From Candidatus Nanohaloarchaea archaeon (lineage in GTDB: Archaea; Nanohalarchaeota; Nanosalinia; Nanosalinales; Nanosalinaceae), in contig JBDGRK010000039.1 of assembly GCA_042218075.1 (NCBI GenBank), positions 1 through 23,844 of the forward strand: a DNA stretch of 23,844 bases. Direction: 5' to 3'. This document shows positions 63-23,545 of the stretch, one piece after another (the first letter of the stretch is position 1; each line of letters begins with the position of its first letter). Both the position numbers and the translations under genes were made by a program. The notes beneath the pieces are model-generated. The model was not told the origin of the DNA. It worked only from the letters and a program-made list of their open reading frames with translations, and did not search any database.

Positions 63-260
63 TCACCTGTCCAGGTATCCCAGCTTTTCCAGCTTCTCGT
101 AGATTTCCTTTGCCTGTTCTTCAGTAATCTCTTCATCTTTAGATTCGGAGTCCGCAAGCTCTCTCAGCTTGTCCTGGACGAACCTTGAAAGATTGATATG
201 GTTCTCGTCCACGAACTCCGCCAGATCGTCAGGGAGAGAAATCGTTTTCCTCTGCATCAT
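63..260 (-). CDS. Small RHH/CopG-like protein with acidic linker and C-terminal LxxLGYLD tail
   Basis: N-terminus QRKTISLPDDLAEFVDENHINLSRFVQDKLREL is RHH-like, and the tail is EEQAKEIYEKLEKLGYLDR. Start moved from 281 to ATG 260 (or 257) because a TTTAAA box lies at 281-286. Confidence 0.75.
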   Translation of the reverse strand: MMQRKTISLPDDLAEFVDENHINLSRFVQDKLRELADSESKDEEITEEQAKEIYEKLEKLGYLDR

Positions 261-276
261 GCATAAGTTATGCATG
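258..276. promoter_or_regulatory. Perfect inverted repeat, candidate RHH autoregulatory operator
   Basis: CATGCATAA-G-TTATGCATG lies between the TATA-like box (281-288) and the start codon of the RHH gene. Confidence 0.6.
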
Positions 277-314
277 TTCATTTAAAAATAGAAGGGTGAA
301 AGTGATCCGGTTGA

Positions 315-536
315 TCAGTCAAGGTAGCCCAGGCTCTTCAGCCTCTCCTTTACCTTTTCCTCGTCCTCCTCGCTGAACTCTTCTTCCTCCTGCTCCATCT
401 TCCTCTTCACCTTTTCTGCGACTTGGTCAAGCACATAGTTGATGTACTCATCAGTCGAGTCAAACCCCTTGTCCTCGGCTCTCTTCGCAAGAAGGCCATA
501 AGTTTCCTCCGGGATTTCCACTGTGTTTCCAGTCAT
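315..536 (-). CDS. CopG/RHH-family small protein with C-terminal RLxxLGYLD tail
   Basis: TVEIPEETYGLLAKRAEDKGFDSTDEYINYVL is an RHH pattern, and the tail is EEFSEEDEEKVKERLKSLGYLD. A TTTAAA box lies at 570-575. Confidence 0.85.
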   Translation of the reverse strand: MTGNTVEIPEETYGLLAKRAEDKGFDSTDEYINYVLDQVAEKVKRKMEQEEEEFSEEDEEKVKERLKSLGYLD

Positions 537-580: not shown

Positions 581-1639
581 TTACACTTCTATATCCTCGA
601 CTTCCTCGGAAGTAGATTCAACCTCCATCTCGAACTCCTGCTTCTCGAACTTCTTGCCGAACAGCCTGAGGATCGCCGGAACAACGTCTTTCTGCTCCTT
701 CAATCCTAGATCAGTGTCCGATCTCCAGATGCCGTTCATCGGGTCGTGATCCATCTCAAGCCCTGGATACTGGTTCGGGTTCAGTGACTCCTCCGCCGGC
801 ATCATCCCGTGATCCGAGACAATCAGGACATGCTCCGGATCGATCTCTTCCACCAGCTCTTCCGTCCTCTCATCAATCCACTCGTAGGCCTCCGCGATCT
901 CATCCCGGTCATCCTCTGGATCTAGAGCGTGGAGCAGGTCGTCGATTATGGGGAATACAGCGAAGATCAGCTCGAAATCCTCCTCATCCGAAAGCTCCTC
1001 GATCATATCAAACGCTTCAGAATTGTACTCGTAGATATTATTCTTGTACTCCTCCAGGTTGGGCTTCGACTCATCCTGCAGCGGAGTCTTGCCGTCAACG
1101 TAATCGTAGCCGTTGTAGCGCCTTCTGTACTCTTCATAGCTTTCAGGATAGGCGGAGGGCATCGCTCCGTCGAGAGGTGCGGGGATCCCGGAAAGCATCA
1201 CGCCGTTATGCTTCCAGGCAGGATACGTGAGCGGCACCTCCATGGTCAGAGTCTTTCCATCGACGTAATCCCAGAGCCGCTTGAACTCGACATCGGTGCT
1301 CCTCGGAGTCCTGTCTTTCAGGTTGAATAGCTTGTTCGGGACATAATAGGCGTAGGTCCTGAGTTTTCCTGCAGGAATACGCTTTGTAATAGCCTTGGTG
1401 AAACCCAGGAACTTCCTCGACTTCACCACATTGTTTATGCTGAGGAAGCCGTGGTCCTCAACTTCCAGTCCGGTTGTGATGGTGGTCCACGCCGTTCCCG
1501 AATCAATCGGGATTCCCCTGTAGACATCTTCAGGCAGAAGTCTGCCTCCATACTCAAGGGAAGAGTAATAATCCGGCTGTATCTCATCAAGGTGCTTTTT
1601 CGAGGCTCCGTCCCAGCCTACCACAAGAACTTTGGTCAT
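581..1639 (-). CDS. AlkP superfamily protein, nucleotide pyrophosphatase/phosphodiesterase (NPP) type
   Basis: Motifs VLVVGWDGA, DSGTAWTTITTG (Ser nucleophile position), DDLLH, VSDHG and MDH. Start placed at MTKVLV (1639), which is preceded by GAGG; the ORF track start is 1660. Confidence 0.85.
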   Translation of the reverse strand: MTKVLVVGWDGASKKHLDEIQPDYYSSLEYGGRLLPEDVYRGIPIDSGTAWTTITTGLEVEDHGFLSINNVVKSRKFLGFTKAITKRIPAGKLRTYAYYVPNKLFNLKDRTPRSTDVEFKRLWDYVDGKTLTMEVPLTYPAWKHNGVMLSGIPAPLDGAMPSAYPESYEEYRRRYNGYDYVDGKTPLQDESKPNLEEYKNNIYEYNSEAFDMIEELSDEEDFELIFAVFPIIDDLLHALDPEDDRDEIAEAYEWIDERTEELVEEIDPEHVLIVSDHGMMPAEESLNPNQYPGLEMDHDPMNGIWRSDTDLGLKEQKDVVPAILRLFGKKFEKQEFEMEVESTSEEVEDIEV

Positions 1640-1710
1640 AATCCTCTGTTTTAAATCCATTTATTTTTATTGTATCCTGTAAACTTTCTCAGATAATTCG
1701 GGCCGATCCC

Positions 1711-1727
1711 AAAAAATTTTAATAAAT
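1711..1727 (+). promoter_or_regulatory. Putative BRE/TATA promoter for the structured RNA
   Basis: AAAAAATTTTAATAAAT lies about 22-30 nt upstream of the stem starting at 1749, and no + strand CDS follows. Confidence 0.45.
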
Positions 1728-1748
1728 CTGGCAGTCTGAATAGGAGGT

Positions 1749-1847
1749 GTGGGAGGTCTCTACGGCCACCCGTGGTAGAACCTCGGGCCAGCCGTTGAGC
1801 TTCACTCCTCAGAATACTGCCGAGGGGTCTCCCACTCTACAATTTTT
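1749..1847 (+). ncRNA. Putative structured non-coding RNA (three-way junction), convergent with the DQSG gene
   Basis: P1 is 1749-1758/1826-1835 (10 bp with two G-U pairs, which favour the + strand). P2 is 1759-1763/1775-1779, P3 is 1781-1786/1820-1825, and an inner hairpin pairs 1796-1799/1808-1811. It is a GC-rich island in an AT-rich spacer and is followed by T5 (1843-1847). Confidence 0.6.
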
Positions 1848-2318
1848 CATAACAGATCAGAGAAATCGCTAAAATCCAGCTTCCAGTCAGGTTCTACTTC
1901 TTTCCTTAAAACCTTCTTTGCCAGAATATCAGGATGGAAATCAGGCTGCCTCGGCTGGATAGTGAATTTTGCTGTATCCGCCTCTGATCCATGGATATCT
2001 CTAATCCAGCAGCAGGTAATATTAACTATATGGGCCATTTTGCCCTCATACTCTTCCTCCATCACCACTTCATAGACTTCCTCAATTGAATCTCTAAGGA
2101 GGTAGAAAAGAGCTGCCGCGTAGAACTTCGAGATGAACTTGCCTTTATCATCGTAGAAAGGCTTTATTCTGCGCCTTACCTCCGAAGTAACTTCGCTTTC
2201 AACCAAAAATTTTGTGGTTAGGAGTTTGACATTCCAGAGGGCAAAAAACTATTGCAGTATCGTTATTTGTTCTATCTATATTACCTGACTGGTCAACTCC
2301 TATCCTCTTGAGATCCAT
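1847..2318 (-). pseudogene. Frameshifted DQSG-motif protein, DUF3800/RNase H-like (about 156 aa if repaired)
   Basis: ATG at 2318 reads MDLKRIGVDQSGNIDRTNNDTAIVF and stops at 2199. The ORF 1847..2206 continues in the +1 frame, which is open from 2248, and contains EEEYEG and HPDILA. The overlap contains A6 (2243-2248) and A5 (2205-2209) runs. A TTTAAA box lies at 2342-2347. Confidence 0.65.
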
Positions 2319-2400
2319 AAAAACTTCAGATAATACAGAAATTTAAAACAATTATCAGACTAAAGTGATAGGCATTCTAAGCCCCATAATAGATATATCC

Positions 2401-3210
2401 CTATATATCCACTCCCTCTATCTCTCCCTCCTCAACTTTTTTCCTCTCACCCTTCTCTATCACCAGCCAGGGCACCTCTACCAGTTCCTTTATGTAGACC
2501 CCTCTGGGGTGCCTCTTCAGGAACTTCTCCCCGAAACAGTCCCCGTGATCCCCAGTGATCACGATCTTCCCCTCCAGCTGCTCGATCAGCTCCTCCACGG
2601 ATTCAAGCGCTCTCTCAAGATTGGCCTTGTAAGCCTCCCACGAGTTTTCCTGGGCGAAGTGCTCATGAGTCTCATCAACATCTCCCTCGAACATGGAGAT
2701 CGAAGGTTCGCCGATAAAGGGGTCGTGGGGCTGCATGTAGTGGATTATCTTCCTCTTGTCCGGGAAGTTTTCCTCTGCCTCTATCGCCTCCTCTGTCACC
2801 GCTTCCGGCTTGGTGATACCCTTCTCCTGGTAGTCATCCTCCATGTAAACAGGAATTACAGAGTGGAAATGCTCGCTGGCCCTGAAATCTTCCCTGTCCG
2901 AGATGTAGGGATTCGCGGTAACATAGACAACATCCCCGTAGTAGTCAGTGAAGTTCTCGTCCCTCCACTCGAAAGTCGCGGAGCCGAGGCTTCTCTTCTT
3001 CTCAAGCTCTCCTTCCAGCCAGTTCACCTCTTCAAAAGCGTCGTATCGGCAAGCGTCAAGCACAATCAGGTAGTCCCAGTCCTCCTCCATCACCCTGACT
3101 CCTCCTTTATTCTTCAGGGAGAAGTAGAATCTGTAGAAATAGGCTATGAAAGGCGTCCATACACCTCTCCTCAAATTTTTGAACACCATATTCCAGTCCT
3201 TGTCCAGCAT
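2401..3210 (-). CDS. Short AlkP superfamily, sulfatase-like protein
   Basis: Motifs WDYLIVLDACRYD, GSATFEW, HYMQPHDPF, ITGDHG and LVEVPW. Confidence 0.85.
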   Translation of the reverse strand: MLDKDWNMVFKNLRRGVWTPFIAYFYRFYFSLKNKGGVRVMEEDWDYLIVLDACRYDAFEEVNWLEGELEKKRSLGSATFEWRDENFTDYYGDVVYVTANPYISDREDFRASEHFHSVIPVYMEDDYQEKGITKPEAVTEEAIEAEENFPDKRKIIHYMQPHDPFIGEPSISMFEGDVDETHEHFAQENSWEAYKANLERALESVEELIEQLEGKIVITGDHGDCFGEKFLKRHPRGVYIKELVEVPWLVIEKGERKKVEEGEIEGVDI

Positions 3211-3255
3211 ATCTTTTGGATGAAACGCGAGAATTGATAAAGCTCGGCAGCCTGG

Positions 3256-3263
3256 TTTTTATA
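3256..3263 (+). promoter_or_regulatory. TATA box of the flippase operon
   Basis: TTTTTATA lies about 24 nt upstream of ATG 3287, consistent with a leaderless archaeal transcript. Confidence 0.55.
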
Positions 3264-3286
3264 GCTCTCGCGTCCTACTCTCGAAT

Positions 3287-4867
3287 ATGGAAAAAGACAG
3301 CGCCCTGAGAACGCTTGTGAAAGGTGCGGGTATAGCTGTAATCGGGATTATGGTGACCAACATCACCGGCTATCTCTACAAGATAGTGATCGGCAGGATG
3401 CTTGGCCCGGAAGGTTATGGGATTATTTCACAGGGCCTGATGATATTCTCCATCACCGCAACTATTGCAATGTTCGGTCTGCCTTCAGGAGTAAAGCGGT
3501 TCGTCAGTAAGTATAAAGCGGAGGAAAAAGAAAAACTTGAGAAAGGGACAGTTAGATCGTCACTGGAAATCGGATTAACCTCCAGTATCGCAGCCGCCAT
3601 AATCCTATTTTTGGGAGCGAAGTGGTTTTCAATACAGTTTTTTGGCGATCCAGATATAGCTATCGTTATCAAAATACTTGCATTTGCAGTGCCGATGCGT
3701 GCTTTGATGTCAGTATCCCTCAGCACTTCAATAGCCTACAAGAAGCTAGAATACAAGATCTACGCCAGGAATATAACCGAGGGAGTAGTGAAGATAGTAT
3801 CGACCCTGGTTCTACTCGCACTTGGATTCGAAATATTCGGTGCCGCACTCGCAGTACTTCTCGGCTGGATTTCAGCTGCATCTTTGGCTTTTTACCTCAT
3901 GCACACCCGTATAAGGCCCTACTTCACTGACGGAAAGCCATTCTCAAGGCCCTACAGGAAGCTTGTAAAGTTTTCAGGCCCACTGATCTTCTCGAACGTC
4001 TTCGGGCAGATTACCTCGTGGGCGGATATCTTCCTCGTCGGGTTCTTCATGTCAAGCGCTTCAGTGGGGATCTACAACTCTGCGCTTCCGACTGCGATGA
4101 TCCTGGGAATGGCCTCAAGCGCTATAACAGCTCTCTCAGTCCCTGTAATGACAGAGATGTACGCGAAGGAGAAACTTGGAGAGCTAGAGAAGGTGTACAA
4201 GACAGGTACCAAGTGGGTGTTCATGCTGGCCTTCCCCGGGGCTCTCCTGATGGCGCTGTTCGCGGACCAGGGTCTCTCCCTGATGTTCGGTAGAGAGTTC
4301 GTGGAGCAGAACGCCGGAATACCCTTCATCCAGATATCCACTGCAGGATTGTCGCTCGCGCTACTGACGCTCGGCTACCTTCTATTCTCGGTCACAAGTC
4401 TCAGCAGGCAGCTTGTACAGGCAACTGGAGACACGCAGTACAACCTCTACATATCCGGGATAGTCGGGGCAGGAAACCTTGGTCTTAACCTGTTGCTGAT
4501 TCCAATGTTCGGGATAGTAGGAGCAGCGCTCGCCACCGCCTCCTCATGGGTGCTCGGGGGCTTCTTCTCTCTCTACTACGTCTACAGGGATCTGAAAATC
4601 CATCCATTCAAGTCAACGTTCCTTCCTGTGGTCGTGGCTTCGATAATCTCCGCTTTCATACCTTATGCAGTCTCGAAGGCACTGTTTGAAACAGTTCCAA
4701 GGTTAATTATATTCCCGGCTTTTCTGGCGTTTGTCGCGCTCTACGTAACACTTTTCCTAGTTCTCGGCGGTCTCGAGAAGGACGACTCGATGATCCTGAA
4801 ATCCATCGAAAATAAATTAGGCGTCGAGGTTCCATACCTCGATAGACTGCTGGAGAGATATTCATGA
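3287..4867 (+). CDS. Oligosaccharide flippase (MOP superfamily, Wzx/AglR-like)
   Basis: 526 aa with many hydrophobic segments. Motifs RMLGPEGYG, ADIFLVGFF...VGIYNSA and LLIPMFGIVGAALAT. Confidence 0.92.
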   Translation: MEKDSALRTLVKGAGIAVIGIMVTNITGYLYKIVIGRMLGPEGYGIISQGLMIFSITATIAMFGLPSGVKRFVSKYKAEEKEKLEKGTVRSSLEIGLTSSIAAAIILFLGAKWFSIQFFGDPDIAIVIKILAFAVPMRALMSVSLSTSIAYKKLEYKIYARNITEGVVKIVSTLVLLALGFEIFGAALAVLLGWISAASLAFYLMHTRIRPYFTDGKPFSRPYRKLVKFSGPLIFSNVFGQITSWADIFLVGFFMSSASVGIYNSALPTAMILGMASSAITALSVPVMTEMYAKEKLGELEKVYKTGTKWVFMLAFPGALLMALFADQGLSLMFGREFVEQNAGIPFIQISTAGLSLALLTLGYLLFSVTSLSRQLVQATGDTQYNLYISGIVGAGNLGLNLLLIPMFGIVGAALATASSWVLGGFFSLYYVYRDLKIHPFKSTFLPVVVASIISAFIPYAVSKALFETVPRLIIFPAFLAFVALYVTLFLVLGGLEKDDSMILKSIENKLGVEVPYLDRLLERYS

Positions 4868-5829
4868 AGAGGAAATTCGAAATCCACGGAACCGGGATCA
4901 AGGTAGAGAGCGGGAAGGAAGAATTCCTGGAATTTCTCTCCGACAGGTTCAGTTACTTCAGAGACTCCGGGGCCGGAGTTGATGTGGAAGTTAATGTTAA
5001 TTTTGGTGAGCCGGGCTGGGATGAGAAAAATTTCTCGAAGTTGGCGAACGGAGTCAAGACGGACGGCAAAGAAATCATGTATCAGGACGGCCCGCTGAAA
5101 CTCCGGGCAGGTATAGACGGAAAAGTTTCCATAGAGGCGTTCTTAGATCCAGAGATGTGGAAACATTACGGCAGGATAGCGAAGAAAGGTTATCAGAGTA
5201 CATGGAACGAGTACTATGAGTACTTTCTAGTGAGAAGAGCTGTACAGCTGCCGATGATGTGGAAGATGCAGAGAGAGGGCTTTTACCCGGTTCACGCCTC
5301 CGCTGTGGAAAAAAAAGGAAAAGCGCAAGTCTTCGCGGGATCAGGAGGAGTAGGCAAGACAACACTCGCGCTCTACCTTGCGGAGAGAGGTTACAAGATG
5401 CTTGGAGACAACTTTGTCTTCCTAAAAGGCGGTAAACTGTATCCCTACCCAGAGATGCTGAGAGTCACTGACTTCACACTGGAAAGAGTCGAGAGCCTGG
5501 AGAAAACAGGGAGAGAAGTCTTCGGGCAGGAGGTGGTCGATGTTGAGGATAACATGATTGGAACGGAGCCCGTTGAACTGGAAAGCATCTTCCTGATGGA
5601 GCTGGGAGATTTCAGGCATCGAGAAGTGGAAAACGGAACTGATCGACTATTGTCACTTGCGGACAGCGTACAGGAGTTCCATACTCACCAATACGCTTCG
5701 CTTTTAAGCTTCATCACTGAGGAGAAGCTGGAGTCGAGGGAGAAAATTTACGAGGAAGCAGTGGAAGGATGCGATATAAGAGAAGTATCATACACCAACT
5801 TTGAAGATGTAAGAGAACTTGTAGATTAA
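4864..5829 (+). CDS. HPr kinase-related P-loop protein
   Basis: VHASAV followed by Walker A GSGGVGKTT and GYKMLGDN matches the HprK C-terminal domain layout. Its start overlaps the flippase stop (ATGA). Confidence 0.75.
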   Translation: MKRKFEIHGTGIKVESGKEEFLEFLSDRFSYFRDSGAGVDVEVNVNFGEPGWDEKNFSKLANGVKTDGKEIMYQDGPLKLRAGIDGKVSIEAFLDPEMWKHYGRIAKKGYQSTWNEYYEYFLVRRAVQLPMMWKMQREGFYPVHASAVEKKGKAQVFAGSGGVGKTTLALYLAERGYKMLGDNFVFLKGGKLYPYPEMLRVTDFTLERVESLEKTGREVFGQEVVDVEDNMIGTEPVELESIFLMELGDFRHREVENGTDRLLSLADSVQEFHTHQYASLLSFITEEKLESREKIYEEAVEGCDIREVSYTNFEDVRELVD

Positions 5830-5839
5830 GAGATCAATT

Positions 5840-5977
5840 TCATTTAAGATATTCTACAACTTTACTGTACTCTCTAATTCTGTCTCTAATCCTCTGCTTT
5901 CTATCCTTCTTTTCTTCAAGTTTATTCTCAAAGTTCCCTTTCATAACCTCTAATTCTATTTTTACTCTGAAAAGCAT
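5840..5977 (-). pseudogene. Possible truncated RelE/ParE-like toxin remnant (45 aa)
   Basis: Manual translation gives MLFRVKIELEVMKGNFENKLEEKKDRKQRIRDRIREYSKVVEYLK. It is basic, AT-rich and directly downstream of the RHH antitoxin-like gene. Confidence 0.3.
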
Positions 5978-6016
5978 TTAGAATCTCTCCAAGTTTTCCA
6001 GAGATCATCGTAAAAT

Positions 6017-6280
6017 TCATCCTCGAAGCTCAGATTCATCCATATCTAACCTCTCCAGCATTTCTTCCCATGGAATCCATTCCGGCTCTCCTTTCTCCTC
6101 CCTTTCTCTAACATTCATAATTCTCTGTATTTCCTCCGGTCTAATAGGAGTTTCTTTACGAAGTTTCTCCCTGATCGACTCGCGGATGAACTCGGATACA
6201 TTCTGGTAGTCGCCTCTCTCCATTCTCTCATCGAGTTCCTCCTTAAGTCCTTCCGGCAGGTTCACAGACTGTACAGGCAT
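6017..6280 (-). CDS. RHH (CopG/ParD-like) antitoxin-type regulator, 87 aa
   Basis: MPVQSVNLPEGLKEELDERMERGDYQNVSEFIRESIREKL is RHH-like, and the acidic tail EWIPWEEMLERL resembles antitoxin tails. Start corrected from 6406 to 6280. Confidence 0.8.
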   Translation of the reverse strand: MPVQSVNLPEGLKEELDERMERGDYQNVSEFIRESIREKLRKETPIRPEEIQRIMNVREREEKGEPEWIPWEEMLERLDMDESELRG

Positions 6281-6292
6281 AGCAAATACACA

Positions 6293-6311
6293 GATATTAA
6301 TCTTTAATATC
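6293..6311. promoter_or_regulatory. Perfect inverted repeat overlapping the RHH gene promoter
   Basis: GATATTAA-TCT-TTAATATC lies 13-31 nt upstream of ATG 6280, in the divergent spacer. Confidence 0.55.
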
Positions 6312-6378
6312 ATTATGGTTTTGATTCCTTCCTGGCAGAGAAACAATAAAGGTAGGGAACGGAAATTTCTACAGAAAG

Positions 6379-7311
6379 ATGAACTATCCTGCTCCATTGG
6401 ATCCAAAAGTCGAGGAAAAACAAGTTAGAACAGATGAATACAGCAGAGCCGGCAACTCCTACTTTTTTACGGAAAGCGGTATGGTGATTCAGAAAGCCGG
6501 AAACCGCTACTTGATCGAGTTCGAATCTCTGGGAGAAGAAACTGTTATAAAGTCCAGTACGGGAAGAAATAGCGATCTTGACCGGTACGTTCTCGACGCG
6601 GAATACTACAGGCTGCTTGAAGAGGGAATATCGCTGAGTCACTTCTCCACCTTTTCAGATGGAGACAAGGCATACGTGCTGACAGGACCCCCTAATACAG
6701 GAAAGACAGGAGTAAACCTCGCGCTGAACCTAAGGGGATACAGATTCATTGCGGATGAAGACGCGCCTGTAAATTCCGATGTTGAAGCACTACCGCTACC
6801 TATGCCCCTTTCAGTTGGAAACAGGAATATGGAGGAATTCCAGGATCTGCTGGATGATCTAGGAGCCGACTACTCCAGTTTCAGGGCTTCAGCCTTCCGG
6901 TCTCTCAGGAAACTTCCCGTACCTCTCGTGGGTAAGGCTCTTGACAGACTGGTGGAGCCGGTGAAGGTAGATCCCCGGGAGCTGAACTTTGAGGAGGATA
7001 AAAGAGAGATCAAAACCGCTTTCTACATACAGCCGGAGAATAGGGAAGACATAGAGATGGAGGAAATGGAGAAGGACGAATTCGTGAGAAAGATGTCGAT
7101 CTGGAACAGTATCCAGAGATCCGGATTCGAGAAGATCTACAGTATCTGGAGGACTGAAAACGATAACTTGAATGAAAATATAGAGGAATCGGAGCAGAAG
7201 GACAGGGAAATCCTCGAAAGCTGCTTTGATGAGGTGGAGGTCAAAAAGCTTAGAGTTCCCCTTGAAAGACAGCCGAGGAAGATCGCAGAGTTCATCGAGG
7301 GAGAGTTATGA
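6379..7311 (+). CDS. Second HPr kinase-related P-loop protein
   Basis: SHFST followed by Walker A GPPNTGKT and GYRFIADE has the same motif spacing as 4864..5829. Confidence 0.7.
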   Translation: MNYPAPLDPKVEEKQVRTDEYSRAGNSYFFTESGMVIQKAGNRYLIEFESLGEETVIKSSTGRNSDLDRYVLDAEYYRLLEEGISLSHFSTFSDGDKAYVLTGPPNTGKTGVNLALNLRGYRFIADEDAPVNSDVEALPLPMPLSVGNRNMEEFQDLLDDLGADYSSFRASAFRSLRKLPVPLVGKALDRLVEPVKVDPRELNFEEDKREIKTAFYIQPENREDIEMEEMEKDEFVRKMSIWNSIQRSGFEKIYSIWRTENDNLNENIEESEQKDREILESCFDEVEVKKLRVPLERQPRKIAEFIEGEL

Positions 7312-8255
7312 AGTTCGCATTCCTGATCCAGCGTGCCTACACCGGCGGGCTCGCCTCGATGCACACCCGGATGAAGGAGGCACTGGAGCGGAGAGGTCAC
7401 GAGGTTGACAAGCTGGTGGTCCAGGAAGAGGACGTGATTGGGAAAGTTGAGGAAGGCGATTACGATGTGGTGCACCTCTACTTCACCCCTTTCCTGAATT
7501 TGAAGTTCTTCGTTCGAATCCTGAAACTCAACTTGACTTCATCCGAGAAAGTGTTCGTCAACTACTACAACATCAAGCCGGAGAATCTTTTCCGCAGGAT
7601 TGTGAAGAGAACGTTTCTACCGCTTCTCTGCACTTTAGTGGTTCTGCCCTCAGAAAACATGGAAAACTTCTACAGGGAAGAGATAGGAATCGATAATACA
7701 GCAACTCTGAGACCGATAGTCGAGGAAAAATTTTACGAGATAGAGAGCGAAGGAGACAATATCATCTACTTCGGCCACTCCAGACCTGACAAAGGAATAG
7801 ATAGATTGATCGAAATCGCCTCGGAAGACATGAAGATCCACACATACTTCATACAGGACCGTGAAAGAGTCTACGGACAGCACCCGGAGATAGAGCAGAA
7901 GATCGAGGAGGGATCGATAGTCTGGCGCGACGAAATGCCCGAAGACGCTCTAAGGGAGGCGAAAGTATCGCTCTTCCCGTTCCACCACCTCCAGAGCACC
8001 GTGGACCTGCCTCTTGCGCTGATAGAGTCTCTGGCGGCAGGAATACCTGTGCTGACCTCGGACATAGCTCCAGTAAACGAGTATCTCCCTGAAGAGTTCC
8101 TGGTGGAAGACTGGAGCCGGGAAAACATCGAGCAGAGAATAGAGAAGATTGACAGCGACTTCTATAGAGAGAAAGCAAGGAATGCAGCGGAAGATATGGA
8201 GGTCGATGAAAGTTCTGTAATCGATCACTATATGGAAATCATCAGGGAAGCATGA
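7308..8255 (+). CDS. Glycosyltransferase, GT4 family
   Basis: Motifs TGG...LERRGHEV, YFGHSRPDKGID and LPLALIESLAAGIPVLTSD. Confidence 0.88.
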   Translation: MKFAFLIQRAYTGGLASMHTRMKEALERRGHEVDKLVVQEEDVIGKVEEGDYDVVHLYFTPFLNLKFFVRILKLNLTSSEKVFVNYYNIKPENLFRRIVKRTFLPLLCTLVVLPSENMENFYREEIGIDNTATLRPIVEEKFYEIESEGDNIIYFGHSRPDKGIDRLIEIASEDMKIHTYFIQDRERVYGQHPEIEQKIEEGSIVWRDEMPEDALREAKVSLFPFHHLQSTVDLPLALIESLAAGIPVLTSDIAPVNEYLPEEFLVEDWSRENIEQRIEKIDSDFYREKARNAAEDMEVDESSVIDHYMEIIREA

Positions 8256-8261
8256 TACAGA

Positions 8262-9710
8262 TCAGATATCGATATCTTCTACATCGTCCCTCTTGACTTC
8301 TTTTTCGACACCGGATTTATAGATCTCGGTCACCACGCGACCGTCCACATCAGAGGGAATCGACAGGCCGTAGTGGTGGAGAATCGTGGGCATCAGGTCG
8401 TAGATTTCGAGATCAAGTTCTCCATGCCAGAAATCCGGTCCATGGGCAGCCCAGATTCCTTCCTGTCTATGGTTGGCTATCCAGCTGCTGGCGCCGCATT
8501 CCTCATCTATCACCTTGTCCGAGAGATCCATCCTTATCTCGACGCCCGGAGCCTGGTCGAGGAAAAGGTCCGGGGCTTCGTCCCCAAACTCTCCCTCGTA
8601 GATTTGATCTCCGTCCTTGACTTCCCTGACAATCTCCCCGTTCTCAAAGCTCTCAAGCTCCTCTTTCAGCCTCTCTTTGAAGGTTTCCGGATCTTCGACG
8701 TTCTCTTCGATTATGTACAGAGGGCCTTCGGAAAGCGCGAATGCTTTGGAATTCTGGAAGTCTATCTTGGGAGCCATATCGGTCTCCTCCACGAACCCAT
8801 CTTCCCTGGGAATCCTTCTCCTGACAGACTTGGGGATAAGCTTCCTCGCCAGATCCTGAAGGCCCAGCTTTTTCACCAGCGAGAACAATCTATCCCTGTT
8901 CAGACCTGTCTTCTGGATCTTGTCCCCAACATCTTTGTTTCTACGTAGGTAGCCTTTTTCCTCAAGCCAGGAGTTGACGTAGAAAAACCTTTCCAGATCC
9001 TGGAAACCGTGGTCGGACATCAGGATTATGTTCACATCCTGCTCCATGATCCTCCCGATCTGTCTGTCGACCTCCTTCCAGACCTCTAGAGTCTCATCAG
9101 AATTCCAGTAGTTGTGCTGCACCCTGTCAGTGAAGAAGAAAGTCAAGTGAAGGAAATCCACCTCATCAAGCTTTTCCAGCGCAAGGTCAGTTCTCTTCGA
9201 AACTATCGACTTTATCTCATCAACCCATTCCCGGGTCTTTTTCTCCGCTGTCGGCTCCACCTGGTAATCCTTCTCGAGTAGTTGATCCTTCAGCTCTTCC
9301 GGATGCGTGAAATCGTCCTCATTAGATGCGAGAGTTCCAGAAACCATAAATTCATCTATCTCGCTCGGCGGATGGGTCGAGGGCATGTTGATCACGCCCG
9401 AGCTTATTCCCTCGTCCGATAGATAATCCCAAATCTCCCTGCTCCTGAAATCTTCAGAGTTAACGAACTCAAGCTCTCCATCCTCTTCATCAAAAGTGAA
9501 CCAGTAAAATACTCCGAACCTGCCGGGATTTCTGCCCGTGGAGTAGGCCTTCCACGCCGGTACAGTCACGTAGGGATGCGTACTCCTGAGATCTCCAGAA
9601 TAGCCGTTCTCGCGTATCTTCTCCAGGTTTGGTAGCTCGCCCTCCTGTATCCACGGCCAGAGGAGATTCCAGGATCCTCCATCTGTACCGATCACAACTA
9701 TTTTCTCCAT
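8262..9710 (-). CDS. AlkP superfamily NPP-type phosphodiesterase/transferase
   Basis: Motifs VVIGTDGG, PYVTVPAWKAYSTG, TDRVQH, MSDHG, ANH and DLMPTIL. Confidence 0.9.
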   Translation of the reverse strand: MEKIVVIGTDGGSWNLLWPWIQEGELPNLEKIRENGYSGDLRSTHPYVTVPAWKAYSTGRNPGRFGVFYWFTFDEEDGELEFVNSEDFRSREIWDYLSDEGISSGVINMPSTHPPSEIDEFMVSGTLASNEDDFTHPEELKDQLLEKDYQVEPTAEKKTREWVDEIKSIVSKRTDLALEKLDEVDFLHLTFFFTDRVQHNYWNSDETLEVWKEVDRQIGRIMEQDVNIILMSDHGFQDLERFFYVNSWLEEKGYLRRNKDVGDKIQKTGLNRDRLFSLVKKLGLQDLARKLIPKSVRRRIPREDGFVEETDMAPKIDFQNSKAFALSEGPLYIIEENVEDPETFKERLKEELESFENGEIVREVKDGDQIYEGEFGDEAPDLFLDQAPGVEIRMDLSDKVIDEECGASSWIANHRQEGIWAAHGPDFWHGELDLEIYDLMPTILHHYGLSIPSDVDGRVVTEIYKSGVEKEVKRDDVEDIDI

Positions 9711-9752
9711 TGAGTTATACAGAGACCTTATAGATTATAACTATTTAGATTT

Positions 9753-10708
9753 TCACTCCCTCCCAAGGTCCTCCGTGAAAAGGCCTTCTACCATTCCCAG
9801 GATCTCGGCGTAGCTCCGCACCACCTTGATCAGCGGAACGAAAACCATGTAGGGATTGGAGGTTCTTCGAATACCCTCTATAACGTAGATCATGACCAGG
9901 AAATACTGGAATACCGCAGTATAGAATATTATCTCATGGAAAGGTGCCATTATAGTCGTCAGTGGAAGTGCGGCGAAGAAAAAGATGCTGAGTAGGGTTG
10001 GGAACGCCTCCGGCCTCTTCCTGAAGTACTGGGGCATGCTCTTTCCGTACCAGCGGCCCTGCCTGAACACTTCACGCAGAGAGGATACTAGTCCGGCGTA
10101 CTCCTCCACATCCTCGAGCTCAACTATCTTGTCATCCGGCCGTTCCAGTCTTTCACCAAGATCCTCATCCTCTCCGTACGCGAGCGATTCGTCGAAACCT
10201 CCTGTCTTCTCCAGCCTCTGCTTCCTGTATATCAGTCCCACCGCAGAACACCTCTCAGCTTCTCCCAGATTTTTCTTATAGCTTTGGCGCGGTTGCTCTT
10301 GTGGCCGAACTTGTTTTCAGCCGAGACAGCCCTGCTGACCCATGTGTCCGTGTAGTGCCTGTGATTCATGTCCACGGAATCCGCGTTCTCCTCCCTGAAA
10401 GCTCTCGCGATCTCTTCCAGCGCGTTCTCGCCCGGAAACCAGTCAGCGTCAAGAAAGTATATCACCTCTCCTCTCGCGTTTCTCCACCCTAAGTTTCTCG
10501 CCACCGCTGTCCCCTTCTGCGGTCCTTCAAGAACCCTCGCACCGCGGCTTTCAGCTACATCGACAGTACCATCAGTCGATCCTCCATCCACCACAACAAC
10601 CTCGTAATCCGAGTAATCCTGTTCCTCCAGCTTCTGGAAAAGCCTCTCCAGGTTCTCCTCCTCGTTTCTCGCTGGCACCAAAATCGAGATGTAGGGATCG
10701 GAACTCAT
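9753..10708 (-). pseudogene. GT2 glycosyltransferase with C-terminal membrane segments, split by a frameshift
   Basis: 10232..10708 carries SILVPARNEE, VVDGGSTD and FLDAD. 9753..10241 carries GGFDESLAYGED, RQGRW and hydrophobic helices. The halves overlap, with the second in the -1 frame, and would give about 318 aa when fused. Confidence 0.8.
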
Positions 10709-12150
10709 ACCTCTATATCATCTATCATGCTGTAAGAAGCCTCTGAAGGATTTTGCTCCAGCTCTGTGAGAACCTCTCCCTCCATGTATCCGGGAATGTC
10801 GAGATCCATCAGGTGGAGCACAGTAGGAGCTATATCAATAATACTGGCATCGACCCTCTGGTTTGCCTTTATTCCTTCTCCAATCGCCCCAAATATACCC
10901 GTGTAGCTGTGGTATGCGTTGGGCGGATCATCGAAGTAGCCTTCCCTGACATCGCCAAGTATGAACTCGGGTTTTAATTCAGCGACGAGCTTCGGGCCCC
11001 TGCCCCTGTAGTCTGATTCTTCCTTAATCTCAAAATTCGAGAAAACCTTTCCTCCATCAGGACCTTCTATATCTTCCAGCTCATCGATCAGCTGTTCCAG
11101 TTTGTCCTGGTCTGAAAAGTCGAAGACCAGCGCGGCACCCACACCGGTCGCCACAAAGTCTGTTTCTTCTAGATCGATCTTGTCGTCCTCTATCTGGTGG
11201 GTTATCCCGGTTCTCCCGTCAGGTACAGCGTCCTGAATATTCTCCGGCACGAATTTTTTGGCCAGAGACCTCATTCCCAGCCTGTTCACGAGGTCCGAGA
11301 TATTGTCCTTCGTAACCCCCATCCTCTCGAGGAGGCTCGTTCTTTTCTTTCTCTTAATGTAGCCTTGGTCCTCCAGCCAGCTGTTCAGGTCGAAGGCGTA
11401 TTCCGGCATCACCATGCCGTGGTCCGACATGAAGATAACCTGATAGCCGTCGGATACAAGTTCGCCAACAATTCTCTCAAGATACGAATCAAGATCCCTG
11501 AACAGCTCCTTCACCTCCTCCTGCTCCGGCTCAGGGTAGAAATGTGTCAGTATGTCGGTTATCCTGATAACGGAGACAAAAAGATCCCACTCCTCCTTCT
11601 TCCTCAGGCGGTCAAGAGCCTGCTTCCTCTTCTCGTAGATCCTGTATATCTCGTCCAGGAACTCCTGCTCCTCCAGGGCGTAGATTCCCCTCGCCTCTAT
11701 CTCGTAGTCGAACTCTTCAAGCAGTTCCTGTTTCAGGTCTGAAGGATATGTAAAATCATTCTTCTCGGAGGGAGTAGTCATTCCAGAGACCATCAAACCG
11801 TTGATATCCTGTGGCGGAAAAGTCACGGGAACGTTGAATATGCAGCATCTTTTCCCCCTTGAAGAGGCGACCTCCCAGAACCTCTCATCCTGTATGTAAC
11901 TTCCGTTAACCGTTCGAATCTCTTCTCCATCGACCAGCTCAAAACCGTATATACCGTGGGACTCTGGCTTCTTCCCGGTCATGAACGATGGCCATGCAGA
12001 TGCAGTAACCGGCGGAGTAGTGGTCTCGAGCTCTCCCCACACGCCTTCCTTCTTCAGTCTCTCGAAGAATGAAAGCTCTCCCTCCTCTATCAGCGGGTCA
12101 AGTATTCGCCATGTAGCACCGTCAAGACCGATAACCGCTACCCTGCTCAT
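10705..12150 (-). CDS. AlkP superfamily NPP-type phosphodiesterase/transferase (paralogue of 8262..9710)
   Basis: Motifs VIGLDGAT, PPVTASAWPSFMTG, TDILTH, MSDHG, AYH and DIAPTVL. Confidence 0.9.
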   Translation of the reverse strand: MSRVAVIGLDGATWRILDPLIEEGELSFFERLKKEGVWGELETTTPPVTASAWPSFMTGKKPESHGIYGFELVDGEEIRTVNGSYIQDERFWEVASSRGKRCCIFNVPVTFPPQDINGLMVSGMTTPSEKNDFTYPSDLKQELLEEFDYEIEARGIYALEEQEFLDEIYRIYEKRKQALDRLRKKEEWDLFVSVIRITDILTHFYPEPEQEEVKELFRDLDSYLERIVGELVSDGYQVIFMSDHGMVMPEYAFDLNSWLEDQGYIKRKKRTSLLERMGVTKDNISDLVNRLGMRSLAKKFVPENIQDAVPDGRTGITHQIEDDKIDLEETDFVATGVGAALVFDFSDQDKLEQLIDELEDIEGPDGGKVFSNFEIKEESDYRGRGPKLVAELKPEFILGDVREGYFDDPPNAYHSYTGIFGAIGEGIKANQRVDASIIDIAPTVLHLMDLDIPGYMEGEVLTELEQNPSEASYSMIDDIEV

Positions 12151-16849: not shown

Positions 16850-17629
16850 ATGAAAGGCGTGATTCTGGCGGGCGGAACAGGTTCAAGGCTGATGCCCTCG
16901 ACCAAGGTGACAAACAAGCACCTGCTGCCTGTATACGACAGGCCGATGATCTACTACCCCCTCGACACTTTAGGCAAGGCAGGTATAGACGATGTGCTGA
17001 TAATCTCAGGTCAGGGACACGCGGGCGACTTCCTTGAACTTTTGGGAGACGGCTCGGATATCCCGACAGAGAGGAAGGGAAGAGAGCTGGAGTTTAACTT
17101 TGACGGGGAGATAACCTACAAGATACAGAAAGAACCCCTCGGCATCGCTCACGCGCTCAGCCTGGCGGATGATTTCATAGAGCCGGGAGAGAAGTTCGTG
17201 GTGATACTCGGGGACAACATCTACGGCGGCGATCCATCCGACCAGATAAAATCCTTCGAGGAAAGCGATTTCGAGGCACAGGTGTTCCTGAAGGAGGTGG
17301 AGGATCCGCAGAGATTCGGGAATCCCAGGGTCGAGGGAGACAGGATCACCCACATTGAGGAAAAACCCGACGAACCCCACTCGGAGTACGCCATAACCGG
17401 GCTCTACGGCTTCTACAACGATGAAGAAAACAGTCTTTTCAAGCATATTGAAACTCTTGAGCCCTCGGACAGGGGAGAGTACGAGATAACTGACATCCTG
17501 AGGTGGTACCAGGAGAGAGCAACTATGACATTCGAGGAGATGGACATGTTCTGGACGGACGCAGGAAAACCCGGAGCTCTGCTAGAAGCCAGCAACTTCA
17601 TGAAGAGAAAGTTTGAGCGGGAAGAATGA
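16850..17629 (+). CDS. rmlA: Glucose-1-phosphate thymidylyltransferase (short RmlA/SpsI type)
   Basis: Motifs GVILAGGTGSRL, KHLLPVYDRPMIYYP, LGDN, EEKP, SDRGEYEITD and WTDAG. Confidence 0.9.
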   Translation: MKGVILAGGTGSRLMPSTKVTNKHLLPVYDRPMIYYPLDTLGKAGIDDVLIISGQGHAGDFLELLGDGSDIPTERKGRELEFNFDGEITYKIQKEPLGIAHALSLADDFIEPGEKFVVILGDNIYGGDPSDQIKSFEESDFEAQVFLKEVEDPQRFGNPRVEGDRITHIEEKPDEPHSEYAITGLYGFYNDEENSLFKHIETLEPSDRGEYEITDILRWYQERATMTFEEMDMFWTDAGKPGALLEASNFMKRKFEREE

Positions 17630-18984
17630 ACATAGTTCTTCTTGTCGCTGACACTCTCAGGGCCAGGAACCTATCGATGTACGGCCACTCGAAGCAGGTC
17701 ATGCCGTTTGTGTCGCAGCTTGAAGAGAAGATAGTGGTCGATAACTACTACTCCAACTCCCCGTGGACACTGCCGGCCCACGCCACAATATTCACCGGCG
17801 AACTACCCTCGGAGCATGGATTTACCACGCAGAACACTTTCTTCGACAAGGACAACGAACTGATCGAATCACTGAAAGAGCAGGGGTTTGAAACCTTCGG
17901 TCTCAGCGAGAACAGCCTGATCTCGGAATCCTTAGGCTTTGGAGAGGAGTTCGACTACTTCTGGTCAGACGCTCCCGAACAGGAGGAAGGAGAGACCTGG
18001 AGAGAGGTCTGGGACAAGGACCTCGAGTACGGAAGCAGGCTGGAAAAGTACAGCGACTTCTTCAGTAAAGCTCTGCGGAGAGGCGACACGGAGTCGATGA
18101 AGACCTTCTTCAGGCATCTCAGGCGGAAGCTGAAAACTGATTCAGAGGACTACAACCCGACCGAGTCAGATCACACGATAAGAGAGGCGCAGAAGATACT
18201 GGAAAAAGGCGAGGACAGATTCCTCTTCGTTAACCTGATGGCGGCACACGCAGCCTACACATTCAACGAGGATCAGAAGGATCGATTCCTGGCAGATGTC
18301 TCAAGAGAGGACATACTAAAGGCGACCTCCTTCAAATCCATTGACGGCATGCTGGAGATGGAGGAAGTTACCGAGAGAGACTTTGAGATCAGGGAAAAGG
18401 CGTACGAGGCCTCCATAAATTACGTTGATAAACTGGTAGAAGAACTTTATAAGGAGGCGCCTGAAGACACTGTATTCCTGCTTGTCGGCGACCACGGCGA
18501 GCTTATAGGGGAGTACGAGAAGCATGGAGTAAGGCTGGTGGATCACCACTTCGGCACTTTCAAGGAAGTAATAGAAGTTCCACTGGTAATATTCGGGAAG
18601 AAAGATATCTCAGATCTTGAGCAGAAGTTTACCGCTGAAAAGCTCTACTCTCACGTGGATCTCTTCCGTCTTATCAGAGACATGGCCGGAAAAGAGGAAA
18701 GCGAGATTGGAGGAGAGCTGGCAAAAGTCGAGTACTATGGCCGGTCAGGTTTCAACAGGCAATTCAATCATGAAATAAAAGAAGGATACAGGCAGCTATA
18801 CGACCGAAAATCATTCTCAATGATAGACCCTGATTTTAAGTACGACCTTGCTTCGGACGGAGAATTCCTGTGGGAAAGAACGGGAGCAACAGAGAATGAG
18901 AACCTTATAGAGAAAGAGGAAGTTCCAGAGAAACTCAGCCAGAAGATGGACATACTCTACAGCTGGAGGATGGATTCGGACTAA
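17626..18984 (+). CDS. Sulfatase-like AlkP hydrolase/transferase (Thr at the nucleophile position)
   Basis: Motifs VADTLRA, SPWTLPAHATIFTG (no C/S-x-P-x-R motif), NLMAAH, VGDHGE and DHH. Its start overlaps the rmlA stop (ATGA). Confidence 0.85.
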   Translation: MNIVLLVADTLRARNLSMYGHSKQVMPFVSQLEEKIVVDNYYSNSPWTLPAHATIFTGELPSEHGFTTQNTFFDKDNELIESLKEQGFETFGLSENSLISESLGFGEEFDYFWSDAPEQEEGETWREVWDKDLEYGSRLEKYSDFFSKALRRGDTESMKTFFRHLRRKLKTDSEDYNPTESDHTIREAQKILEKGEDRFLFVNLMAAHAAYTFNEDQKDRFLADVSREDILKATSFKSIDGMLEMEEVTERDFEIREKAYEASINYVDKLVEELYKEAPEDTVFLLVGDHGELIGEYEKHGVRLVDHHFGTFKEVIEVPLVIFGKKDISDLEQKFTAEKLYSHVDLFRLIRDMAGKEESEIGGELAKVEYYGRSGFNRQFNHEIKEGYRQLYDRKSFSMIDPDFKYDLASDGEFLWERTGATENENLIEKEEVPEKLSQKMDILYSWRMDSD

Positions 18985-20226: not shown

Positions 20227-20257
20227 GTAATTAATAATATCTGAGGAACTAATAATC

Positions 20258-22566: not shown

Positions 22567-22577
22567 CCAGATAAAAA

Positions 22578-23516: not shown

Positions 23517-23518
23517 GA

Positions 23519-23535: not shown

Positions 23536-23545
23536 AATATAATAT

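What the first reader, a model, noticed from the sequence alone, without database searches (positions are those of the whole stretch)
581..10725. Four divergent AlkP-superfamily enzymes share one acidic C-terminal hexapeptide
Seen: the termini are VEDIEV (581-601), IEGVDI (2401-2421), VEDIDI (8262-8282) and IDDIEV (10705-10725), giving [VI][ED][DG][IV][ED][IV]-COOH after a short polar linker. The carriers range from 269 to 482 aa and span both NPP-type and LDACRYD sulfatase-like subfamilies. No other protein in the window ends this way, including the fifth AlkP enzyme. Inference: this is a dedicated docking, sorting or self-capping signal, reminiscent of EEVD/TPR or PDZ-ligand termini, that recruits these enzymes into a glycan-modification complex.
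Basis: partly seen in the sequence, partly recalled or inferred. Interest (0 to 1): 0.8.

Follow-up and report, generated by a model that had tools for sequence, protein, structure and literature searches.

The report
Conserved acidic-hydrophobic tail on AlkP enzymes
Four phosphatase/sulfatase-like enzymes in a sugar-coat gene cluster of a tiny salt-loving archaeon end in the same six-residue peptide, a real, selected and apparently undescribed tag on a flexible tether whose binding partner is still unknown.

Summary
Four minus-strand ORFs end VEDIEV, IEGVDI, VEDIDI and IDDIEV. Codons and stop codons differ, so conservation is at the protein level.

The motif is conserved:
- 33 of 41 distinct ~480-aa NPP-type homologues in related genomes carry it.
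- So do 31 of 48 homologues of the 359-aa carrier and 22 of 120 of the 269-aa carrier.
- In 21 related glycan loci plus the window, 48 of 74 AlkP-fold ORFs carry it, against 5 of 263 other ORFs.

Consensus: hydrophobic-x-[D/G]-hydrophobic-[D/E]-hydrophobic-COOH. AlphaFold2 gives it low confidence, so it probably sits on a flexible linker.

It is one of several interchangeable C-terminal states. Homologues elsewhere carry an "RLxxLGY" helix, a basic helix or nothing. Tail type switches within families.

Best reading: a nanohaloarchaeal short linear docking motif. The receptor is unidentified. No TPR protein was found, and the only PDZ proteins are membrane proteases. The one complex prediction gave no verdict.

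This scan found the LGY tail before on other DNA, but not this acidic tail.

The parts
581..1660 (-). NPP-type AlkP enzyme (longest ORF 359 aa; probable start at 1639, 352 aa) ending EEVEDIEV. Hexapeptide codons 584-601, stop TAA 581-583.
   Evidence: PF01663 at 56.5 bits. Translation. 31 of 48 homologues end in the same kind of tail, mostly E[VL]EDI[ES]V.
2401..3210 (-). 269-aa AlkP-fold enzyme (LDACRYD type) ending EIEGVDI. Hexapeptide codons 2404-2421, stop TAG.
   Evidence: Sub-threshold Sulfatase/PglZ hits. Model pLDDT 94 with the last 9 residues about 59. Fold matches EptA/MCR-type, LtaS-type and sulfatase domains. 22 of 120 homologues, the closest ones, carry the tail.
8262..9710 (-). 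482-aa NPP-type AlkP enzyme ending DDVEDIDI. Hexapeptide codons 8265-8282, stop TGA.
   Evidence: PF01663 at 132 bits. Model pLDDT 93.4 with residues 478-482 below 50. NPP/ENPP/PhnA fold. Orthologues at 63-69% identity end DDLDI or DDLNI.
10705..12150 (-). 481-aa NPP-type paralogue (32% identical to the 482-aa one) ending MIDDIEV. Hexapeptide codons 10708-10725. Its TGA stop overlaps the ATG of the next gene.
   Evidence: PF01663 at 134 bits. A 68%-identical orthologue in G034 ends FTGDLDV. Paralogue identity.
315..536 (-). 73-aa protein with a ribbon-helix-helix-like N-terminus, an acidic linker and the other tail, ...KERLKSLGYLD. It lies directly downstream of the 359-aa carrier.
   Evidence: Translation. 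10 of 10 family members in related loci end in LGY. In 5 of 8 short forms the gene just upstream on the same strand carries the acidic-hydrophobic tail. No Pfam family above cut-off.
63..281 (-). 72-aa protein of a second small family, ending ...YEKLEKLGYLDR.
   Evidence: 10 of 10 members end in LGY. Only a weak CcdA-like hit below the cut-off.
17626..18984 (+). Fifth AlkP enzyme (sulfatase type, 452 aa) with no tail. Serves as an internal contrast.
   Evidence: PF00884 at 104.7 bits. Ends WRMDSD with no tail in other frames. Homologues in relatives end GLDI, GIDV or LGY.

Best explanation
The hexapeptide is a C-terminal short linear motif that so far looks confined to nanohaloarchaea. Its consensus is hydrophobic-x-[D/G]-hydrophobic-[D/E]-hydrophobic-COOH. 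It is held on a flexible, variable, polar linker behind the catalytic domain of cytoplasmic AlkP-fold enzymes in surface-glycan gene clusters.

Shown here:
- It is selected at the protein level.
- It is almost confined to AlkP-fold enzymes.
- It occurs on at least five recognisably different AlkP subfamilies.
- It always sits at the very end of the protein.
- Within single families it is exchanged for the widespread RLxxLGY helix, a basic helix or no tail.

Inferred:
- It works as a docking peptide. The free carboxylate, the penultimate acid and the hydrophobic residues at 0, -2 and -5 would insert into a pocket of a shared receptor.
- My preferred receptor is another AlkP-fold protomer or paralogue. 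That would be tail-mediated homo- or hetero-oligomerisation, as C-terminal extensions do in dimeric and tetrameric sulfatases, phosphonate monoester hydrolases and choline sulfatase.
- My second choice is the small LGY-tailed ribbon-helix-helix-like proteins encoded next to the carriers.

The stated confidence is for 'selected docking motif'. The AlkP-to-AlkP receptor alone I put at about 0.3.
For: Specificity:
- The strict regex hits 4 of 1249 ORFs, all of them the carriers.
- The hexapeptide is on 4 of 8 AlkP ORFs against 1 of 1241 others in this genome.
- In 21 related loci plus the window and contig C21, 48 of 74 AlkP ORFs carry the tail against 5 of 263 others (Fisher p 2e-33; relatives are not independent).
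- The background rate of the loose three-residue ending is 1.5-2% in two whole proteomes.

Protein-level selection:
- The four tails use different codons and different stops, and nothing downstream is conserved.

Conservation at low body identity:
- 33 of 41 distinct ~480-aa homologues carry the tail, at 22-37% identity to the window protein for those included in alignment A2.
- Among 76 tails, positions not fixed by my regex are still biased: -3 is D/G/E in 84%, -5 is hydrophobic in 75%, -6 is acidic in 61%.

Flexibility:
- pLDDT is below 50 for the last 5 residues of the 482-aa enzyme and about 59 for the last 9 of the 269-aa enzyme, while the bodies score 93-94.

Modularity:
- The same four end states occur in three separately searched families and among the best 150 representatives (LGY 65, basic 45, none 24, acidic-hydrophobic 16).
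- Homologues of the 359-aa carrier at 64% identity carry either tail.
- On a tree built with the last 30 residues removed, the tail needs at least 3 changes, and the AU test rejects a single clade (delta lnL 160, p 1e-58).

Precedent:
- C-terminal extensions mediate oligomerisation in AP-superfamily sulfatases and phosphonate monoester hydrolases, and reach the neighbour's active-site entrance (PMC5870055, passages read).
Against: - No binding partner has been identified or tested.
- Alignment A2 of 40 tail-bearing NPP-type enzymes has no invariant or near-invariant Lys or Arg that could hold a carboxylate. Its conserved residues are Gly, Pro, Trp, Asp, His, Ser, Thr, Ala and Leu. This does not favour a conserved basic pocket on the AlkP body.
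- AlphaFold2 does not dock the tail in cis.
- Published AP-superfamily extensions are long, structured helices or hairpins, not six residues on a floppy linker.
- Other pathway enzymes in the clusters (glycosyltransferases, epimerases, nucleotidyltransferases, the flippase) lack the tail. That is odd for a general 'recruit the pathway' tag.
- The tail classes were defined after seeing the data, related genomes are not independent samples, and the AU group was named after a first tree had been seen.
Confidence: 0.5

Rival explanations
1. Self-capping pseudo-substrate. The penultimate Asp/Glu and the terminal carboxylate fold back, in cis or from a neighbour, onto the two-metal active site that all AlkP-fold carriers share. 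They mimic the anionic phosphate or sulfate ester and keep the enzyme closed until substrate or a partner displaces the tail.
For: - The only thing all carrier subfamilies obviously share is the AlkP core with its metal ligands. D10, T49, D195, H199, D233, H234 and H414 are invariant or nearly so in alignment A2.
- The tail is nearly restricted to that fold.
- The position before the last is acidic in 93% of 76 tails, though my regex partly selects for this.
- In choline sulfatase the extreme C-terminus contacts the loops over the neighbour's active-site entrance (PMC5870055).
Against: - AlphaFold2 places neither tail with confidence. It models no metals, so this is weak evidence.
- The interchangeable LGY and basic tails have no conserved terminal acid.
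- Ser replaces the acid in a number of tails (5 of 76).
Confidence: 0.15
2. Recognition signal for a PDZ-type protease or another C-terminus-reading quality-control factor. The ending hydrophobic-x-hydrophobic-COOH has the form of a class II PDZ ligand (class definition recalled, not from a call).
For: - Positions 0 and -2 are hydrophobic (partly by definition of my regex).
- The genome encodes PDZ domains.
Against: - The PDZ proteins found are an HtrA-like protease with an N-terminal membrane segment and an M50 membrane protease. In known relatives those PDZ domains face outward (recalled).
- The carriers have no signal peptide and begin directly with the catalytic GxDG strand.
- A degradation signal kept on most paralogues of one enzyme fold only would be unusual.
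Confidence: 0.08
3. No specific function. The tail would be inherited from a common ancestor of the paralogues or spread by recombination, and kept as a harmless acidic, solubilising end in a salt-adapted proteome.
For: - Most carriers form one large clade of nanohaloarchaeal paralogues.
- The proteome is very acidic, with 11.9% Glu.
Against: - The hexapeptide is conserved where the body is only 22-37% identical and the adjoining linker is not conserved.
- It occurs on subfamilies with no detectable similarity outside the AlkP core.
- Synonymous codons differ.
- The AU test rejects a single origin within the ~480-aa family.
- Background frequency is 1 of 1241.
Confidence: 0.07
4. Membrane or export address. 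The tail, like the basic helix seen in non-halophilic homologues, would bring the enzymes to the membrane where lipid-linked glycans are built. Alternatively it marks them for unconventional export to the cell surface or to the host.
For: - A basic amphipathic helix occupies the same position in many homologues.
Its homologues recur in 10 related loci.
- Bacterial AlkP-fold polymer-decorating enzymes work at the membrane (structural matches to EptA and LtaS-type domains).
Against: - Six residues, two or three of them acidic, cannot form an amphipathic membrane anchor.
- I know of no archaeal export route that reads C-termini of this type (recalled).
Confidence: 0.08

Closest known systems
C-terminal oligomerisation extensions of AP-superfamily sulfatases, phosphonate monoester hydrolases and choline sulfatase (PMC5870055; passages read)
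   Same: An extra C-terminal segment behind an AlkP-fold catalytic domain. It differs between subgroups and contacts another protomer, reaching towards its active-site entrance.
   Different: Those extensions are tens of residues long and fold into helices or a beta-hairpin. Here a six-residue motif sits on a flexible linker, and no oligomer has been shown.
The 'RLxxLGY' C-terminal helix on AlkP-fold enzymes of glycan loci. I know it only from this scan's earlier notes and found no paper on it.
   Same: Same position behind the same enzyme families, also after an acidic linker. It swaps with the acidic-hydrophobic tail inside single families and co-occurs in the same clusters.
   Different: - Different sequence and length.
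- LGY is phylogenetically broad. It is carried by homologues whose source names include several haloarchaeal genera and a record labelled 'bacterium'.
- LGY also sits on non-AlkP proteins: 9 of 10 PAPS-reductase-like ORFs and two small ribbon-helix-helix-like families.
- The acidic tail is nearly AlkP-only and so far seen only in nanohaloarchaeal-type sequences.
C-terminal peptide ligands read with a free carboxylate: PDZ class II ligands, Hsp70/Hsp90 EEVD with TPR clamps, and the acidic-hydrophobic tip of bacterial SSB (all recalled from general knowledge)
   Same: A short acidic stretch plus hydrophobic residues at the extreme C-terminus of a disordered tail, shared by several different client proteins.
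   Different: No TPR protein was found. No cytoplasmic PDZ protein was found. The sequences differ. No receptor is known.

Membership tests
AlkP superfamily, NPP type (Pfam PF01663): the 359-, 481- and 482-aa carriers | Pfam score above the curated cut-off | tested here: met
   56.5, 133.8 and 132.2 bits against a cut-off of 23.
AlkP superfamily, NPP type (Pfam PF01663): the 359-, 481- and 482-aa carriers | Conserved metal ligands and Thr nucleophile | tested here: met
   D10, D233 and H234 are invariant, and T49, D195, H199 and H414 invariant or at least 90% conserved, in alignments A1 and A2. Assigning these to the NPP metal sites rests on recalled knowledge of Xanthomonas NPP.
AlkP superfamily, NPP type (Pfam PF01663): the 359-, 481- and 482-aa carriers | NPP-like fold | tested here: met
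   For the 482-aa carrier only. Foldseek finds ENPP1/3/6, Xanthomonas NPP and phosphonoacetate hydrolase at E 1e-15 to 1e-18, TM 0.5-0.7.
AlkP superfamily, sulfatase / phosphoethanolamine-transferase branch: the 269-aa carrier | Sequence family match above cut-off | tested here: not met
   Sulfatase 24.2 and PglZ 22.8 bits, both just under 25. Some homologues carry precomputed PF00884.
AlkP superfamily, sulfatase / phosphoethanolamine-transferase branch: the 269-aa carrier | AlkP fold | tested here: met
   The model (pLDDT 94) matches EptA/MCR-type, EptC, LtaP, PorX and sulfatase domains at E about 1e-7 to 1e-4, TM 0.4-0.53.
PDZ class II ligand system | C-terminus of the form hydrophobic-x-hydrophobic-COOH | tested here: met
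   All four window tails. 76 of 76 collected tails also fit, but that is by definition of my regex.
PDZ class II ligand system | A PDZ protein in the same compartment | tested here: not met
   Only an HtrA-like protease with an N-terminal membrane segment, a contig-end fragment and an M50 protease were found. The genome is 92% complete.
EEVD/TPR-type docking | A TPR receptor encoded in the genome | tested here: not met
   TPR_16, TPR_12 and TPR_8 give no hit at E <= 0.1 in a 92%-complete genome, while the control genomes ring. Other TPR families were not searched.
AP-superfamily C-terminal oligomerisation extension | The extension contacts a second protomer | tested here: inconclusive
   The single homodimer prediction returned no verdict. 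No experimental data exist.
'LGY' tail | Ends in [RK]Lxx[LIM]GY plus 0-3 residues | tested here: not met
   None of the four carriers fits. The two small ORFs 63-281 and 315-536 and the sulfatase on contig C15 do.

The most novel reading that the evidence does not exclude
The acidic-hydrophobic tail and the LGY helix would together form a two-signal address system. It would assemble several AlkP-type decorating enzymes, a PAPS-reductase-like enzyme and two ribbon-helix-helix-like mini-proteins (as adaptors) into one cytoplasmic glycan-decoration machine beside the flippase. That would be a prokaryotic enzyme scaffold built from short linear motifs, with the acidic tail as a nanohaloarchaeal invention that replaced LGY several times.
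Probability: 0.15. Interest if true: 0.8.

Novelty: new variant of a known kind. Interest (0 to 1): 0.6.

Why it matters
Short linear docking motifs are well mapped in eukaryotes and barely at all in archaea. Here one enzyme fold carries a six-residue, carboxylate-terminated tag across many paralogues, and the tag is swapped within families for a second, far more widespread tag.

- If the receptor can be found, it would show how these tiny symbiotic archaea organise the enzymes that decorate their surface glycans. The surface is what they present to their haloarchaeal hosts (the host relationship is general knowledge, not tested here).
- It would also give a handle on the equally unexplained LGY tail carried by thousands of bacterial and archaeal enzymes.
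- The motif is short and sharply defined, so peptide pull-downs and deletion tests are straightforward.

Tried and rejected
- **DNA-level repeat or terminator translated by accident.** Rejected. The four tails use different codons and three different stop codons, and nothing downstream is shared.
- **Acidic-proteome background.** Rejected.
- **Cis docking in AlphaFold2 monomers.** Not seen. Both tails have low confidence.
- **Homodimer of the 482-aa carrier (complex prediction, alignment A2, two copies).** 'No answer', score 0.00 against a mark of 0.42, controls not run. This is no evidence either way.
- **TPR receptor.** Three Pfam TPR families give no hits in the genome.
- **PDZ receptor.** Only membrane proteases were found.
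- **Kinase-like P-loop ORFs 4864-5829 and 6379-7311 as conserved partner.** No homologues in 20 related loci.
- **A Pfam family covering either tail.** None, even at E <= 1.
- **A solved close relative.** None by sequence. Only remote phosphonoacetate hydrolase and ENPP matches.
- **Fusions that would place a partner domain behind the acidic tail.** None among the best 150 representatives. The one 1104-aa hit is a tandem duplication ending in LGY. I did not run a 'longer' search with the search for homologous proteins.
- **Literature.** Three full-text searches found nothing on these tails: nanohaloarchaeota + alkaline phosphatase + glycosylation; nanohaloarchae + C-terminal motif; COG3379. 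Only listings and abstract starts were seen for those hits.
- **Earlier notes of this scan.** None on the acidic tail.
- **G020 as an independent proteome test.** Less useful than hoped, because its cluster mostly uses LGY tails.


Full report
**What the window is.**
- The window is a whole 23.8-kb contig (C33) of a 1.10-Mb, 40-contig genome rated 92% complete.
- The proteome is very acidic, with 11.9% Glu.
- Close homologues of window proteins come from records named Candidatus Nanohalobium and Nanohaloarchaea archaeon. I therefore treat the organism as a nanohaloarchaeon. This rests on those names only.
- The contig is a surface-glycan cluster. Pfam finds GT1/GT4 and GT2 glycosyltransferases, a ribbon-helix-helix protein and five AlkP-superfamily enzymes.
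I did not scan them against Pfam.

**The observation.**
- Four minus-strand ORFs end VEDIEV (581-1660), IEGVDI (2401-3210), VEDIDI (8262-9710) and IDDIEV (10705-12150).
- Three are PF01663 enzymes.
- The 269-aa one is just under the Pfam cut-offs for Sulfatase and PglZ. Its AlphaFold2 model (pLDDT 94) matches AlkP-fold phosphoethanolamine-transferase, LtaS-type, PorX and sulfatase domains.
- The 482-aa model (pLDDT 93.4) has the NPP/ENPP/phosphonoacetate-hydrolase fold.
- The fifth AlkP enzyme (17626-18984) has no such end, and no tail is hidden in another frame.

**Is it chance or composition?**
- I called ORFs over the whole genome with a simple codon-usage score, giving 1249 ORFs at 86% coding.
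From the printed amino-acid frequencies I calculate by hand about 0.014 expected.
- The generalised hexapeptide, hydrophobic-x-x-hydrophobic-[DE]-hydrophobic, is on 4 of 8 AlkP-superfamily ORFs and 1 of 1241 others (p 3.5e-9).
- A loose three-residue ending occurs on 23 of 1241 non-AlkP ORFs (1.9%).
- The other AlkP members in this genome lack it: a 260-aa NPP type on C21, a protein on C27 that I read from its sequence as a phosphoglycerate mutase, and a sulfatase on C15 that ends in LGY.
- In a complete related genome, G020 (1,027,595 bases, 1165 ORFs of mine), the strict regex hits 0, the hexapeptide 3 and the loose ending 17.
- At the DNA level the four tails use different synonymous codons and the stops TAA, TAG, TGA and TGA, with nothing shared downstream. 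Conservation is therefore at the protein level.

**Do relatives conserve it?**
- 482-aa carrier: six of the seven closest homologues (63-69% identity) end DDLDI or DDLNI, and the seventh, at 69% identity over 90% of the query, also ends DDLDI.
- 481-aa carrier: a 68%-identical orthologue ends GDLDV.
- 359-aa carrier: 31 of 48 homologues carry the tail, mostly E[VL]EDI[ES]V. Fourteen end in LGY, two more have an LGY-like end with a longer trailer, and one ends EDIKV.
- 269-aa carrier: 22 of the 120 listed homologues carry it, and these are the closest ones. Forty-six end in LGY and 52 in something else or nothing.
- Across 61 related genomes, 37 have a homologue of the 482-aa enzyme, often several in one locus.
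- Among 41 distinct homologues of at least 440 aa that I could read, 27 end hydrophobic-[DES]-hydrophobic, 6 end x-D-F, 2 end in LGY and 6 otherwise.
- In alignment A2, the 32 more distant sequences are only 22-39% identical to the window protein, yet the ends align.
- A C-terminally anchored profile of 76 distinct tails gives, at positions my regex did not fix: -3 = D/G/E in 84%, -5 hydrophobic in 75%, -6 acidic in 61%.

**Is it tied to the enzyme fold?**
- I fetched 20 further stretches around such genes and added the G020 cluster, the window and contig C21. I then called ORFs and clustered all 337 of them.
- The two AlkP clusters hold 74 ORFs: 48 with the acidic-hydrophobic tail, 6 with LGY and 20 with neither.
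- The other 263 ORFs hold 5 such endings (1.9%, the background rate). One is a membrane protein whose homologues lack it.
- Pfam confirmed that several carriers with no window homologue are also AlkP-fold: sulfatase/DUF229 types of about 330 aa and NPP types of about 290 aa.
- The tail thus sits on at least five recognisably different AlkP subfamilies. It is absent from the glycosyltransferases, epimerases, nucleotidyltransferases and flippases of the same loci.
- One NPP subfamily, the 260-aa type that includes the C21 ORF, lacks the tail in every locus where I read it.

**A second tail, and interchange.**
- In homologues listed by the three protein-database searches, the same C-terminal position is occupied by one of three things: a helix ending [RK]LxxLGY plus 0-3 residues, a basic helix, or nothing.
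- Among the best 150 representatives to a profile of tail-bearing enzymes the split is LGY 65, basic 45, none 24 and acidic-hydrophobic 16.
- Five of the six named haloarchaeal homologues carry LGY and the sixth (Halopenitus) a basic tail; none carries the acidic tail.
- In nanohaloarchaeal loci both tails coexist.
- LGY also sits on non-AlkP proteins there: 9 of 10 members of a cluster whose tested member is a PAPS-reductase-domain protein, and all 20 members of two small-protein families. ORFs 63-281 and 315-536 of this window belong to those families.
- Tail type changes between close relatives. Homologues of the 359-aa carrier at 63-65% identity carry either tail.
- On an IQ-TREE of 54 ~480-aa enzymes built with the last 30 residues removed, the acidic tail needs at least 3 changes. 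The AU test rejects holding its 25 bearers together (delta lnL 160, p 1e-58).
- Caveats: I named that group by tail type, but after seeing a first FastTree, and the tree is a 'quick' search.
- This scan had already noted the LGY tail on other DNA. I confirm its breadth but did not test the TPR link proposed there. The acidic tail was not in the scan's notes.

**What it most likely does.**
- The anatomy is that of a selected docking peptide read together with its free carboxylate. It is a sharply conserved six residues at the extreme end. It follows a variable polar linker. Two models give it low confidence. It is carried by many paralogues, and it is exchangeable for another short C-terminal module.
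- The receptor is not identified.
- Because the tail is nearly confined to one fold, I favour another AlkP protomer or paralogue. That follows the precedent of C-terminal extensions that oligomerise AP-superfamily sulfatases, phosphonate monoester hydrolases and choline sulfatase and that reach the neighbour's active-site entrance (PMC5870055, passages read).
- Against this, alignment A2 shows no conserved basic residue that could hold a carboxylate, and the published extensions are long and structured.
- A self-capping variant, with the tail on the metal site, remains possible.
- The small LGY-tailed proteins are a second candidate receptor. In 5 of 8 short members of the 315-536 family, the gene immediately upstream on the same strand carries the acidic tail. 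Tail genes are common in these loci, so this is only suggestive.
- The EEVD/TPR and PDZ analogies find no matching receptor in this genome.

**Novelty and verdict.**
- I found no paper on either tail, no Pfam model covering them and no close solved structure.
- I rate this a real, conserved and apparently undescribed C-terminal motif. It is a new variant of the known kind 'C-terminal docking or oligomerisation tail'. Its specificity is well supported and its mechanism is unproven.
- No supplementary files were consulted.

Noticed in passing
window 9753-10708 (-): A GT2 glycosyltransferase is split into two overlapping ORFs of 158 and 162 aa in different frames. Homologues in related loci are single ORFs of about 296-349 aa. 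This is either a frameshift (pseudogene) or an assembly error.
   Followed up: partly
window 63-536 (-) and related loci (e.g. L083:6862-7338): Two families of roughly 65-80-aa proteins have a ribbon-helix-helix-like N-terminus, an acidic linker and an LGY tail. They recur in these glycan loci, often in the order: tail-bearing AlkP gene, mini-protein 1, mini-protein 2, 260-aa tail-less NPP gene, PAPS-reductase-like gene with LGY tail. Neither family has a Pfam match above cut-off.
   Followed up: partly
related loci, e.g. L049:14396-15310 (-); G000 as a whole: A roughly 305-aa PAPS-reductase-domain protein ending ...KLRELGYM is present in most related clusters. tblastn at E<1e-3 did not find it in this 92%-complete genome.
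   Followed up: partly
G000 contig C21 (1307 bases): C21 carries a small ORF ending ...WGLKEY and the 260-aa NPP-type gene. In related genomes these lie directly after the two mini-proteins, so C21 probably adjoins the low-coordinate end of the window.
   Followed up: no
window 4864-5829 and 6379-7311 (+): Two P-loop ORFs, the first with weak HPr-kinase/PEPCK-like hits, have no homologue in 20 related glycan loci. They appear to be a local addition to this cluster.
   Followed up: partly
window about 20000-23844: GC falls to 0.39 against 0.47-0.52 elsewhere. The three ORFs 20258-23516 have the lowest codon-usage scores on the contig (0.10-0.16 per codon), which suggests recently acquired sugar-modification genes.
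   Followed up: no
window 1639-1660: The longest ORF of the 359-aa carrier probably over-extends. Orthologues start at the Met of MTKVLVVGWDG, which gives 352 aa. The database copy of the window protein is called at 347 aa.
   Followed up: yes
P0289 (database protein, 1104 aa): This is a tandem fusion of two ~500-aa NPP-type domains. Only the second, terminal copy ends in the LGY helix.
   Followed up: no
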